DNA of 46,082 nt. It comes from a virus. Positions within the stretch are counted from its first letter, which is position 1. Every line of letters begins with the position of its first letter. Positions 2,557 to 28,731 of the stretch are shown here, in pieces. A model generated the notes under the pieces. The model was not told where the DNA came from. It made no database searches and saw only the letters and a program-made list of their open reading frames with translations. The stretch lies in IMG/VR virus record IMGVR_UViG_3300024517_000002; one strand, given 5' to 3'. The translations under genes were made by a program, and so were the position numbers.

Positions 2557-3600
2557 ATGGTATCCAACGTACCGGTAACACGAGCAATGGTCGGCGCTGG
2601 GAGCCGCGACATGGGCGATTCTGGCACCATGGCCCCCATCCCGAGCACCGTGCCGGCTGACCCCGGCAATGCGTCCGACGAGCTGACGTTCGAGGGCTTC
2701 GAGGAAATCATGAAGGGCCGCGGCTTCTCCGAGGAGTCCGACCCCATGCTGACCGAGATGGGGATCGACCACGAGCCCGACCTCGTGGCTCCCGCCCTCA
2801 ATGACCCCGACGTGGAGGCCCCTGCTGATGTTGCCCCTCAGGCGCCCTCAGTTGACGCCCTGGCGGACCTGACGCCGCTTGAGCTTCTGGACCATCGGGA
2901 CGCCATCGACACGCTGACGGCCGCGGGGTACACCGTGGACGAGCTGGCATCGATGAGCCCGGCGACCCACGTAAAGACCGCGCAGGTGATGCGTGGACAT
3001 CAGGCCAAGGCCACGGACAGCTCCGCGGTGGAATCCGCGCTGGCCCCGACGGCTGAGGCGCCGGCTCCGTTCGACGTGAAGGCTCTCATGGAGGGCATGC
3101 GTGAGGAGCTGGGCGAAAAGACGACCGGCGACATGGGCTCGCTGTTCGAGAAGCTGCTAGGGCACGTTGACCAGCGGATCAGCAAGGCGCAGGACGACGC
3201 CGCGACCCAGGCCAACGGGATGCGGCTCATCGCTGAGCAACGCCTGCGGCTGGAGGGGGCGAACCCCGGCCTGAAGGACCGGCCGCACGTCATGGAGCGG
3301 GTTGTCGGCACCGTGAACGCGCTTCTCGAGTCCGGGCTTCACGGCTCGGACCCTGAGCACCTGTTCAACGTAGCTGCCGGCACGTACCGGCTGGACACCG
3401 AGGCGCGGGCCATGAAGCCGAAGGCCTCCACGCGCGACATCCTCGGCGGGCAGCCGAAGCCGTCGCGTCAGCTGGCGAGCGGCGCAGCGGGGCCGAAGCA
3501 GACCAAGGGGGGTTATACGTACGCGTTGCTTGCAGCGAGGCTCAATGGGCTTTCGCAGGAAGCAGCGTTGCAGAAGCTAGGACCGGCTCCCACCTCGTAA
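2557..3600 (+). CDS. Scaffolding protein (putative)
   Basis: 347 aa, acidic, Ala/Glu/Leu-rich and helix-prone. It lies between the portal and capsid genes. AAGGGAAAAC precedes the ATG. Confidence 0.5.
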   Translation: MVSNVPVTRAMVGAGSRDMGDSGTMAPIPSTVPADPGNASDELTFEGFEEIMKGRGFSEESDPMLTEMGIDHEPDLVAPALNDPDVEAPADVAPQAPSVDALADLTPLELLDHRDAIDTLTAAGYTVDELASMSPATHVKTAQVMRGHQAKATDSSAVESALAPTAEAPAPFDVKALMEGMREELGEKTTGDMGSLFEKLLGHVDQRISKAQDDAATQANGMRLIAEQRLRLEGANPGLKDRPHVMERVVGTVNALLESGLHGSDPEHLFNVAAGTYRLDTEARAMKPKASTRDILGGQPKPSRQLASGAAGPKQTKGGYTYALLAARLNGLSQEAALQKLGPAPTS

Positions 3601-27598: not shown

Positions 27599-27853
27599 AT
27601 GCCCCCGACACCTGAGGACCTCGAGAAGGGGCTGGACGGCCTGGAGCAGGAGGTTACACGCCTCAAGCTCTGGGTCGCTGAGCATGACGGCCGCATCGAG
27701 GCTTGGTGGGCCAACCAGCACGCCTGGAATGAGAAGATCGAGGAGCGCCTCTGCGATCTAGCCCTCAGGCTCTCCGCCGTGGAGAAGCGGATGATGTGGT
27801 GGGCCGGAGCCGCGGCGGGCGCCGGTGGGTGGATGGGGAGTTACTTCGGGTAG
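27599..27853 (+). CDS. Coiled-coil protein with a Gly/Ala-rich hydrophobic C-terminus (84 aa)
   Basis: Track ORF. The C-terminus is MMWWAGAAAGAGGWMGSYFG. Confidence 0.55.
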   Translation: MPPTPEDLEKGLDGLEQEVTRLKLWVAEHDGRIEAWWANQHAWNEKIEERLCDLALRLSAVEKRMMWWAGAAAGAGGWMGSYFG

Positions 27854-28487
27854 ATGTCCATGTAGGAGGTTATGAACTCCGCCGCGAGCGGTGCGACGAT
27901 CGCGTTCCCGTAGGCGCGCAGGCGTCCCATGCGGCCGGGAACCCCATGAGCCAACGGGAATGCGCCGGGTTCAATTGGCCGCCATCGGGAACTTTTAGGG
28001 TCGTGACAGAGGACCCATTCGTGACCGTCCCAGAAAGATGAGTTTCGTGGGGTAGCGGAGCGCGTCCCTTCAAGTGAGCCTTTGATCGCTTCTTCATGCT
28101 TGCTGTAGGCGTGGCCCACCCCGCCAGCATCGCTACTTCGTTGAGGGACCGTGAGTTCTTGCCGTGCAGGTTGCTCTTGCCACTCTTCCAATCCCTCGCT
28201 GCGCAGGTCGGCCACGAAGTACAGTCGTTGTCTTTTATGTGGAGCACCGACGCAAGCCGCGATCCCGTCCAGACGGGGCGGTCGTCTGGCCACCCGGCTA
28301 ATCGTAAGGCGTGCGGCCATCCGCCGATCCCAGCAAATAGGTGCGTTTGACAAAACCTAGAGAGGGATTTAGGGGCGAGGCCCTGGATGGGCCGTTCGAT
28401 AATTGGCCCGCTAGGTATGTGTCCGCCCGACATCAGGCCTCTCATCCACTCAGCAGCAAATGCTTCCGTTTCGTTATAAACCGCCAT
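27841..28487 (-). pseudogene. Disrupted C5 DNA-cytosine methyltransferase-like gene (motifs split over two frames, catalytic core missing)
   Basis: Frame A (27870..28487) reads [15 protein letters not shown]...LFAGIGGW (motif I)...DRPVWTGS. Frame B (27841..28353) reads [17 protein letters not shown] (motif VIII-like) and [18 protein letters not shown] (motif X). I found no PCQ (motif IV) or ENV (motif VI). Confidence 0.55.
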
Positions 28488-28731
28488 CGTCCGGCTCGTC
28501 ATCGTTCTTCTCCAGCCACTCCGCGGCCCACCGCCCCGGGGGCTCGTCTACTATGTCCACCTCCTTGAGGTTGCCGGCGGGCCCCACGGTAAGCGCAGTT
28601 GTCGCGGTGTCCGGTATGTCACGCGCCGCCTGGCCGGCCTTCTCCCTGCCGCGGAGGATCTTCAGTATCTGGTCCAGCTTCCCCTCGATGCGCTCCAGCC
28701 TGGATTCGTTGGGGATCATGATGGCCACCAT
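28474..28731 (-). CDS. Hypothetical protein (85 aa)
   Basis: Track ORF. Its end overlaps the start of the methyltransferase-like gene by 14 nt. Confidence 0.5.

What the first reader, a model, noticed from the sequence alone, without database searches (positions are those of the whole stretch)
27841..28487. C5 DNA-methyltransferase-like gene with motifs split between two overlapping frames and no catalytic core
**What is present on the minus strand:**
- Two long same-strand ORFs overlap for about 480 nt.
- Frame A (28487->27870) starts [15 protein letters not shown]. It carries the AdoMet-binding motif I (LFAGIGGW) and then DRPVWTGS.
- In homologues I recall, PCQPFS (motif IV, the catalytic Cys) follows at exactly that point. 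Here the sequence jumps instead into text that only makes sense in frame B.
- Frame B reads [17 protein letters not shown] (motif VIII-like). Its C-terminus is [12 protein letters not shown]...[37 protein letters not shown] (motif X).

**What is missing or odd:**
- I could not find PCQ or ENV (motif VI) in any frame.
- Frame A stays open and also reads like methyltransferase target-recognition and motif IX text: [40 protein letters not shown].
- GC3 favours frame A in the middle of the locus and frame B at the 3' end.

**Possible explanations:**
- It may be a recently decayed orphan methyltransferase with an out-of-frame internal deletion.
- It may be a gene that needs frameshifting.
- It may be a truncated AdoMet- or DNA-binding decoy.

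Its start is translationally coupled to the upstream ORF by a 14-nt overlap, so some product is probably still made.
Basis: partly seen in the sequence, partly recalled or inferred. Interest (0 to 1): 0.6.

Follow-up and report, generated by a model that had tools for sequence, protein, structure and literature searches.

The report
Deleted remnant of two-frame methylase gene
This phage carries a broken copy of a DNA cytosine methylase gene that normally encodes two proteins in two overlapping reading frames; one 214-base deletion removed the catalytic core and welded the start of one protein onto the end of the other, so the locus is an instructive but ordinary gene remnant.

Summary
Two minus-strand ORFs (28502/28487..27870 and 28353..27841) overlap by 484 nt. 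Both carry significant methyltransferase similarity, and no PCQ or ENV motif exists in any frame.

Two separate facts explain it.

1. The family is natively dual-coding. In about 250 classifiable related phage, prophage and metagenome loci, nearly all have an alpha frame with motifs I, IV, VI, VIII and X. The +1 frame of the same gene holds a nested, selectively maintained beta ORF with WPTP modules and a motif-IX-like [11 protein letters not shown]. This is the layout shown experimentally for M.EcoHK31I, and this scan has already reported it on other DNA.

2. This copy has one 214-nt deletion, between 28263 and 28262, relative to its closest intact relative L246.
   - It removes alpha motifs IV-VII and the conserved N-terminal part of beta.
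   - Because 214 = 3x71+1, alpha residues 1-75 now run into the beta C-terminus (frame A).
   - The alpha C-terminus (motifs VIII-X) is stranded in frame B.

The allele recurs in at least five contigs, so it is real rather than an assembly error. The product cannot methylate DNA. It is most likely a pseudogene whose fused ORF may still be translated.

Interest is low to moderate: this is a decayed member of a known kind.

The parts
28263..28487 (-). Alpha N-terminal remnant (residues 1-75, MAVYNE...WTG), in frame A. It includes motif I, LFAGIGG, at 28340-28320. An alternative start is the ATG at 28502.
   Evidence: It matches phrog_363 positions 7-75. tblastn of 163 family alpha proteins ends at 28260. 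It is 57-60% identical to alpha residues 3-79 of intact relatives.
28258..28266 (-). Deletion junction. 214 nt present in the closest intact relative are missing between 28263 and 28262. The placement is ambiguous by a few nt.
   Evidence: The global nucleotide alignment to L246 shows one 214-nt gap. Independently, motif I to motif VIII is 95 nt here against 309 nt in intact loci.
27870..28262 (-). Beta C-terminal remnant, read in frame A as a continuation of the alpha N-terminus. It carries WPTC and GWATP modules and the motif-IX-like [13 protein letters not shown] (27974-27936). Its stop, at 27872-27870, is the natural beta stop.
   Evidence: It matches phrog_31772 and phrog_1008, and those families cover the +1 ORF product of intact genes. 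It is 38-53% identical to beta C-termini of L163, L166, L052 and others. The closest beta is L246.
27841..28262 (-). Alpha C-terminal remnant in frame B. It holds motif [12 protein letters not shown] (28248-28225), a low-complexity linker, [25 protein letters not shown], and motif [11 protein letters not shown] (27924-27895). It has no N-terminus of its own; the only upstream starts in this frame are the TTG at 28353 and the ATG at 28320.
   Evidence: It matches phrog_363 positions 197-315. It is 38-45% identical to alpha residues about 145-302 of intact relatives.
28474..28731 (-). Upstream 85-aa ORF whose end overlaps the methylase start by 14 nt.
   Evidence: ORF list. It has no PHROG match.

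Best explanation
The locus is a deletion remnant of a nested two-subunit (alpha/beta) phage C5 DNA-methyltransferase gene of the M.EcoHK31I type.

**The intact gene.** One frame encodes alpha, with motifs I, IV, VI, VIII and X. The +1 frame of the same DNA encodes beta, with a helix-hairpin N-part, WPTP modules and a motif-IX-like [11 protein letters not shown].

**What happened here.** A single 214-nt deletion (3x71+1) removed alpha residues about 77-148, which hold motif IV with the catalytic Cys and motifs V-VII. It also removed the conserved N-terminal part of beta.
- The one-base remainder puts alpha residues 1-75 in frame with the beta C-terminus. This is frame A, a 205-210 aa chimera.
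- The alpha C-terminus (motifs VIII-X) is left in frame B without a proper start.

**Shown.** The family-wide second frame under selection, the deletion and its size, the absence of catalytic motifs, and the recurrence of the allele.

**Inferred.**
- Alpha and beta of this family work as a heterodimer (by analogy to M.EcoHK31I).
- The remnant is enzymatically dead.
- It is most likely a pseudogene whose chimeric ORF may still be translated, because it keeps the original start.
For: **Family layout.**
- K1H and PVN06 carry a full alpha ORF plus a +1 ORF of 230-246 codons.
- The +1 frame is open for 221-348 codons in all 79 loci checked, against 36-125 codons for +2.
- The motif and frame pattern I, IV, VI, VIII, X in frame 0 with IX-like in +1 holds in nearly all of about 250 classifiable loci.

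**Selection on the +1 frame.**
- Synonymous-codon shuffles predict 3.9 stops in +1. The observed number is 0 in 53 of 67 genes, and the mean P(0) is 0.029.
- Frame-0 third-position diversity collapses from about 0.55 to 0.23-0.40 over motifs IV-VIII.
- It falls to 0.09-0.16 where +1 reads [15 protein letters not shown].

**Deletion.** There is one 214-nt gap against L246. Alpha residues 75-170 of an intact relative (L003) align to M.HhaI residues 74-173, motifs IV-VIII.

**No catalytic motif and no second copy.**

**Real allele.** P0001 occurs in 4 contigs from JGI, Logan and ENA. P0135, in a fifth contig, differs by one residue, from a base change that is synonymous in frame B.

**Precedent.** In M.EcoHK31I, beta lies entirely inside another frame of the alpha gene and both chains are needed for activity (PMC2836561; PMC3404938).

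**Structure models.** The alpha model has a confident catalytic domain and a C-terminal helix, a disordered linker and no folded recognition domain. It matches C5 methyltransferases over about 169 columns.
Against: - No relative closer than about 72% (best segment) was found, so the exact breakpoints and the age of the deletion are unknown.
- Both remnant frames are still free of stops up to their natural ends. This could mean continued selection rather than a recent deletion.
- The heterodimer model for this family rests on analogy. The beta model is poor (pLDDT 57), and beta has no detectable sequence match in PDB, Pfam or NCBIfam.
- Homology to M.EcoHK31I itself could not be tested, because no sequence was at hand.
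Confidence: 0.85

Rival explanations
1. The chimeric frame A protein (alpha N-terminus plus beta C-terminus) has been kept for a new role that needs no catalysis. Examples are DNA binding through the WPTP and motif-IX-like part, or acting as a decoy or regulator.
For: - Frame A keeps the original start, the coupling to the upstream ORF and its natural stop.
- Both frames are stop-free after the deletion.
- The allele persists in at least five contigs with a variant.
- The most conserved beta block, [25 protein letters not shown], is intact.
Against: - The remnant is only about 400 nt in a 64% GC genome, so open frames carry little weight.
- The beta segment ARLTASGEMLTGS.AGM is degenerate here.
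- The deletion removed the part of beta that is predicted best (helix 85-106 and hairpin 111-133 of the L003 beta model). It also removed most of the Rossmann domain, so a stable fold is doubtful.
- Other alpha::beta fusions in the database have varied junctions and are singletons, as expected for random decay.
Confidence: 0.1
2. The gene is intact but needs programmed ribosomal frameshifting between frames A and B to make an active methyltransferase.
For: Two long overlapping same-strand frames both carry methyltransferase motifs.
Against: - No frame contains motif IV (PCQ) or motif VI (ENV/EQV), so no frame-hopping path yields a catalytic core.
- I saw no X XXY YYZ slippery heptamer around the junction (read).
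- The two frames are explained by the nested beta gene of intact relatives.
Confidence: 0.02
3. The deletion and frame change are assembly or sequencing artefacts.
For: The window is a metagenome-derived phage genome, and I could not inspect reads.
Against: - The same protein occurs in 4 contigs from three sources. A fifth contig of 8.7 kb carries the same architecture with one substitution.
- A clean 214-nt gap is not a typical homopolymer error.
Confidence: 0.03

Closest known systems
M.EcoHK31I (E. coli HK31, YGGCCR), a heterodimeric C5 methyltransferase with beta nested in another frame of the alpha gene
   Same: [quoted passage not shown] This is the layout described for M.EcoHK31I (PMC2836561; PMC3404938).
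   Different: - In M.EcoHK31I, alpha is said to hold the recognition domain and beta only motif IX. Here alpha has a disordered linker instead of a folded recognition domain, and beta is long (230-340 aa) with WPTP modules.
- The window copy lacks motifs IV-VII and the beta N-part, so it is not a working example.
- Sequence homology to M.EcoHK31I was not tested.
Phage orphan C5 methyltransferases of phrog_363, with the nested ORF family phrog_1008/phrog_31772. Examples: Escherichia phage K1H gp32/gp33, Edwardsiella phage PVN06, Burkholderia phage BcepC6B gp33.
   Same: The window's frames match these families directly and by tblastn. K1H annotates both frames as genes.
   Different: These genes are intact, at 274-290 aa for alpha and 230-246 aa for beta. 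The window has lost 214 nt, and the two products are fused and truncated.
M.HhaI (monomeric C5 methyltransferase, PDB 1mht/2i9k)
   Same: Alpha residues 75-170 of an intact relative align to HhaI residues 74-173 (E 2e-7). The alpha model matches HhaI over 169 columns.
   Different: HhaI is a single chain with all ten motifs and a folded small domain. Precisely the HhaI-like segment (motifs IV-VIII, up to just before VIII) is what the window has lost.

Membership tests
C5 DNA methyltransferase (Dcm type, PF00145) | Motif I (F-x-G-x-G, AdoMet binding) | tested here: met
   LFAGIGG is present in frame A at 28340-28320.
C5 DNA methyltransferase (Dcm type, PF00145) | Motif IV (P-C-Q) with the catalytic cysteine | tested here: not met
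   No PC[QE] occurs in any of the six frames of 27700-28700. The motif lies inside the 214-nt gap. Pfam gives no hit for either ORF.
C5 DNA methyltransferase (Dcm type, PF00145) | Motif VI (E-N-V; G-E-Q-V in this family) | tested here: not met
   No E[NQ]V occurs in any frame.
C5 DNA methyltransferase (Dcm type, PF00145) | Motifs VIII and X in the same polypeptide as motif I | tested here: not met
   GAPHKRQR and [10 protein letters not shown] are present, but only in frame B. Motif I is in frame A.
M.EcoHK31I-type nested alpha/beta C5 methyltransferase | An alpha ORF carrying motifs I-VIII and X in one frame | tested here: not met
   Met in nearly all of about 250 classifiable relatives. In the window, alpha is split by the deletion.
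M.EcoHK31I-type nested alpha/beta C5 methyltransferase | A complete beta ORF with a motif-IX-like segment, nested in another frame of the alpha gene | tested here: not met
   Only the beta C-terminal about 130 residues remain, fused to the alpha N-terminus. The conserved beta N-part (LSARQA..GSTLYKLTWK..TPSG) is deleted.
M.EcoHK31I-type nested alpha/beta C5 methyltransferase | Both polypeptides are required for methylation | not testable with these tools
   Shown only for M.EcoHK31I itself.
M.EcoHK31I-type nested alpha/beta C5 methyltransferase | Sequence homology to M.EcoHK31I alpha and beta | not tested
phrog_363 (alpha) and phrog_1008/phrog_31772 (beta) | Significant profile match | tested here: met
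   E 9e-17 and 3e-17 to the two ends of phrog_363. E 4e-17 to phrog_31772 and 1e-13 to phrog_1008.

The most novel reading that the evidence does not exclude
The alpha-N::beta-C chimera made by the deletion is retained and translated as a non-catalytic DNA-binding protein. It would use the recognition modules of the former beta subunit, for example as a site-specific regulator or as a decoy against methylation-related host defences.
Probability: 0.08. Interest if true: 0.55.

Novelty: new member of a known kind. Interest (0 to 1): 0.3.

Why it matters
**Annotation value.** This case shows how a dual-coding gene decays.
- The second frame is kept open by selection in the ancestor. A deletion of 3n+1 bases therefore does not truncate the gene. 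It creates a long chimeric ORF that looks like an odd methyltransferase with motifs in two frames.
- Gene callers then report such chimeras as proteins. Several exist in public protein sets (P0006, P0048, P0060, P0076, P0085).
- Recognising the nested alpha/beta layout explains these without invoking recoding.

**Biological reading.** This phage has lost cytosine-5 methylation by this enzyme. That would be expected if methylation became useless or harmful, for instance in hosts with methylation-dependent restriction. This is an inference and was not tested.

**Scope.** The family-wide two-frame coding is the more remarkable fact, but it has an experimental precedent and this scan has already reported it on other DNA.

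Tried and rejected
- **Long in-frame fusions.** I looked for canonical long proteins carrying the beta domain in frame with other domains. Only 14 hits appeared, and they look like read-through ORFs.
- **Beta against PDB.** The beta profile found no match in PDB sequences at E up to 10. The beta model was too weak (pLDDT 57) for a fold search.
- **N-terminal divergence as a sign of decay.** The window's alpha N-terminus mismatches 14 of 47 conserved columns. The intact closest relative L246 also shows 14 of 47, so this is lineage divergence. I rejected it as evidence of decay.
- **Poly-G or homopolymer switch.** I asked whether such a tract explains the frameshifted database forms. Only 6 sporadic runs occur in 178 genes, and none lies at the junction.
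- **A stable P0018/Q9Z406-type fused lineage in bacterial genomes.** I saw none among the 80 closest genome loci; those the motif-based classifier could place were not fused.
- **Literature.** Searches for the dual coding under 'Mte8', 'C-specific methylase' and overlapping-frame terms found no description of this family.
- **Slippery site.** I saw no -1 slippery heptamer near the junction.

Full report
**1. The observation**

On the minus strand, frame A runs 28502..27870 (210 aa) and frame B runs 28353..27841 (170 aa). They share 484 nt. The family-like start MAVYNE is the ATG at 28487. All quoted peptide strings are present.

Neither ORF hits Pfam, but PHROGs gives strong, complementary matches:
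- Frame A residues 3-71 match phrog_363 positions 7-75.
- Frame B residues 32-167 match phrog_363 positions 197-315.
- Frame A residues 156-208 match phrog_31772 and phrog_1008.

A six-frame scan of 27700-28700 finds motif I and GNAI but no PCQ or ENV/EQV. The 14-nt overlap with the upstream ORF at 28731..28474 is correct.

**2. Two frames are a property of the family, not of this copy**

tblastn of frames A and B against phage genomes hits the same genes in the same records.
- In Escherichia phage K1H, both frames are annotated as overlapping genes: 274 aa, and 230 aa in +1.
- Edwardsiella phage PVN06 has a 290-aa methyltransferase with PCQPFS, GEQV, GAPHIRQR and YGNAI. Its 246-codon +1 ORF ends in ..[30 protein letters not shown].

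I then fetched loci from three sources:

| Source | Loci |
|---|---|
| IMG/VR | 190 |
| Metagenome contigs | 75 |
| Bacterial genomes | 80 |

In all 79 loci of the first set that could be checked, the +1 frame is open for 221-348 codons. The +2 frame is open for only 36-125 codons. The pattern 'I, IV, VI, VIII, X in frame 0 and the LNP..WLMG block in +1' holds in nearly all classifiable loci.

**3. The second frame is under selection**

- I shuffled synonymous codons within each gene, which keeps the alpha protein and the codon usage. This predicts 3.9 stops in +1 between VDE and GNA. The observed number is zero in 53 of 67 genes, and the mean chance of zero is 0.029 per gene.
- Codon-position diversity shows ordinary single-frame coding for alpha codons 1-82 and after RLRAYGNAI, with third-position diversity of 0.43-0.69.
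- Third-position diversity falls to 0.23-0.40 from PCQPFS to motif VIII.
- It falls to 0.09-0.16 over WRPVEPGTFPLAHG. There the +1 frame reads [15 protein letters not shown], with amino-acid diversity of 0.09 at its [10 protein letters not shown] core.
- In the middle, alpha is an unalignable low-complexity linker, while +1 keeps GWPTP..D modules.
- This dual constraint also explains why a 128-nt stretch (window 27857-27984) stays 75-85% identical at the DNA level. It does so across phages of Escherichia, Klebsiella, Pseudomonas and a cyanobacterium.
- A +1 ATG lies between the last upstream stop and PCQ in 75 of 77 genes, mostly at alpha alignment columns 33-43. This fits independent initiation of the nested ORF.
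- phrog_1008 and phrog_31772 turn out to be this +1 product itself. Pfam and NCBIfam have no model for it.

**4. Known precedent**

M.EcoHK31I consists of alpha (motifs I-VIII, X) and beta (motif IX). Beta is encoded entirely in another reading frame inside the alpha gene, and both are needed for activity (PMC2836561; PMC3404938).

Notes of this scan on other genomes had already linked this phage family to that enzyme. I used them as a lead and checked the papers and the family statistics myself.

My own structure models fit a split enzyme:
- Alpha folds into a confident catalytic domain (residues 1-170) and a C-terminal helix, joined by a disordered linker, with no folded recognition domain.
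- Alpha matches C5 methyltransferases over about 169 columns.
- Beta alone is poorly predicted (pLDDT 57). Only a helix and a hairpin in its N-part exceed 70.

That beta's [16 protein letters not shown] corresponds to motif IX of M.HhaI rests on my recollection of the HhaI sequence. No tool result supports it.

**5. What is special in this window**

Motif I to motif VIII spans 309 nt in intact loci but only 95 nt here. The closest relative found is L246 (Ga0163144_10478441). It is intact through motif VIII, and its beta reads ..[32 protein letters not shown], much like the window.

A global nucleotide alignment to L246 shows a single 214-nt gap between window positions 28263 and 28262.
- The lost segment covers alpha residues about 77-148. 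It lies within the stretch of an intact relative's alpha (L003 residues 75-170) that aligns to M.HhaI residues 74-173.
- It holds the catalytic cysteine loop and motifs V-VII.
- It also holds the conserved N-part of beta (LSARQA..GSTLYKLTWK..TPSG).

Since 214 = 3x71+1, the alpha N-terminus (residues 1-75) now continues into the beta C-terminus, giving frame A. The alpha C-terminus (motif VIII, linker, motif X) lies in frame B behind out-of-frame text. The native beta start frame now leads into the third, non-coding frame.

There is no second alpha or beta copy in the 46-kb genome.

**6. The allele is real and unusual**

- The frame A protein occurs in 4 contigs from JGI, Logan and ENA (P0001).
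- A fifth contig encodes P0135, which differs by P197H. By my reading of the codons, the base change behind it is synonymous in frame B.
- Intact genes are the rule. 178 of 192 loci in the phage and IMG/VR set have a full alpha ORF with PCQ in frame. Of the 14 left unclassified, the one I read directly (L174) is an intact, more divergent gene.
- A few bacterial and metagenome loci carry other lesions. L205 and L206 have a 1-nt loss before motif VIII. L285 has a frameshift. L322 and L327 have premature stops.
- Public protein sets hold other alpha::beta chimeras made by deletions with varied endpoints: P0006, P0048, P0060, P0076 and P0085. They also hold pure frameshift forms: P0002, P0018/Q9Z406 and P0041.
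- These look like sporadic decay products that gene callers report because the second frame is open.

**7. Function of the remnant**

Without motifs IV and VI it cannot methylate cytosine.
- The chimera keeps only the first quarter of the Rossmann domain.
- It lacks the best-folded part of beta.
- By analogy with M.EcoHK31I, whose beta needs its N-terminus to bind alpha, it has probably lost the subunit interface too.

I tested whether the sequence shows relaxed constraint.
- The alpha N-terminus mismatches 14 of 47 highly conserved columns. The intact L246 does the same, so this is lineage divergence.
- The beta block ARLTASGEMLTGS.AGM is degenerate here, while [25 protein letters not shown] is intact.
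- The age of the deletion cannot be set without closer relatives.

My reading is a pseudogene whose chimeric ORF may still be translated from the original start. A retained non-catalytic role is possible but unsupported (about 0.1).

**8. Rejected alternatives**

- Programmed frameshifting cannot restore a catalytic core that is absent from every frame.
- An assembly artefact is unlikely, given independent contigs with a variant.
- A homopolymer switch is not a feature of this family sample.

**9. Verdict**

The puzzling two-frame text is the native nested-gene layout of an M.EcoHK31I-like family. This copy is a decayed member, so interest is low to moderate. The general phenomenon is striking, but it has an experimental precedent and this scan has already reported it on other DNA.

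Noticed in passing
window 27857-27984: This stretch of about 128 nt is 75-85% identical at the DNA level to methylase genes of 141 phage records from very different hosts, including Escherichia, Klebsiella, Pseudomonas, Burkholderia and a cyanophage. It is the stretch where both frames are most conserved, which is a nucleotide-level signature of dual coding.
   Followed up: partly
L205 and L206, motif I at 3142: Two freshwater metagenome contigs carry motif VIII at +308 nt instead of +309 nt from motif I. Alpha therefore runs into the beta frame without a large deletion. Database proteins P0002, P0018 (Q9Z406, 'MTE8_ECOLI homolog') and P0041 have the same architecture. Whether these are real frameshift alleles or sequencing errors is open.
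   Followed up: partly
L285 (Brenneria alni), L322 (Consotaella salsifontis), L327 (Variovorax sp.): These prophage copies in bacterial genomes carry a frameshift after motif VIII or premature stops in alpha. Sporadic inactivation of this gene is therefore not rare in prophages.
   Followed up: no
L001 (Escherichia phage K1H), 1171-1995 and 1259-1951: RefSeq annotates both overlapping frames as 'DNA methyltransferase' (gp32 and gp33; gp33 was originally 'Mte8-like'). PHROGs holds the nested product as separate families (phrog_1008, phrog_31772). Pfam and NCBIfam have no model for it.
   Followed up: yes
window 27599-27853 (+) against 27841-28353 (-): An 84-aa plus-strand ORF converges on the methylase remnant and overlaps the end of frame B by 13 nt. 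The simple scan found no terminator-like site between the two transcription directions.
   Followed up: no
window 28320-28318: Motif I reads GIGGW here (GGC GGA TGG). This creates an ATG in the frame that, after the deletion, leads into the alpha C-terminus (frame B). It could allow weak translation of a motif VIII-X fragment.
   Followed up: no
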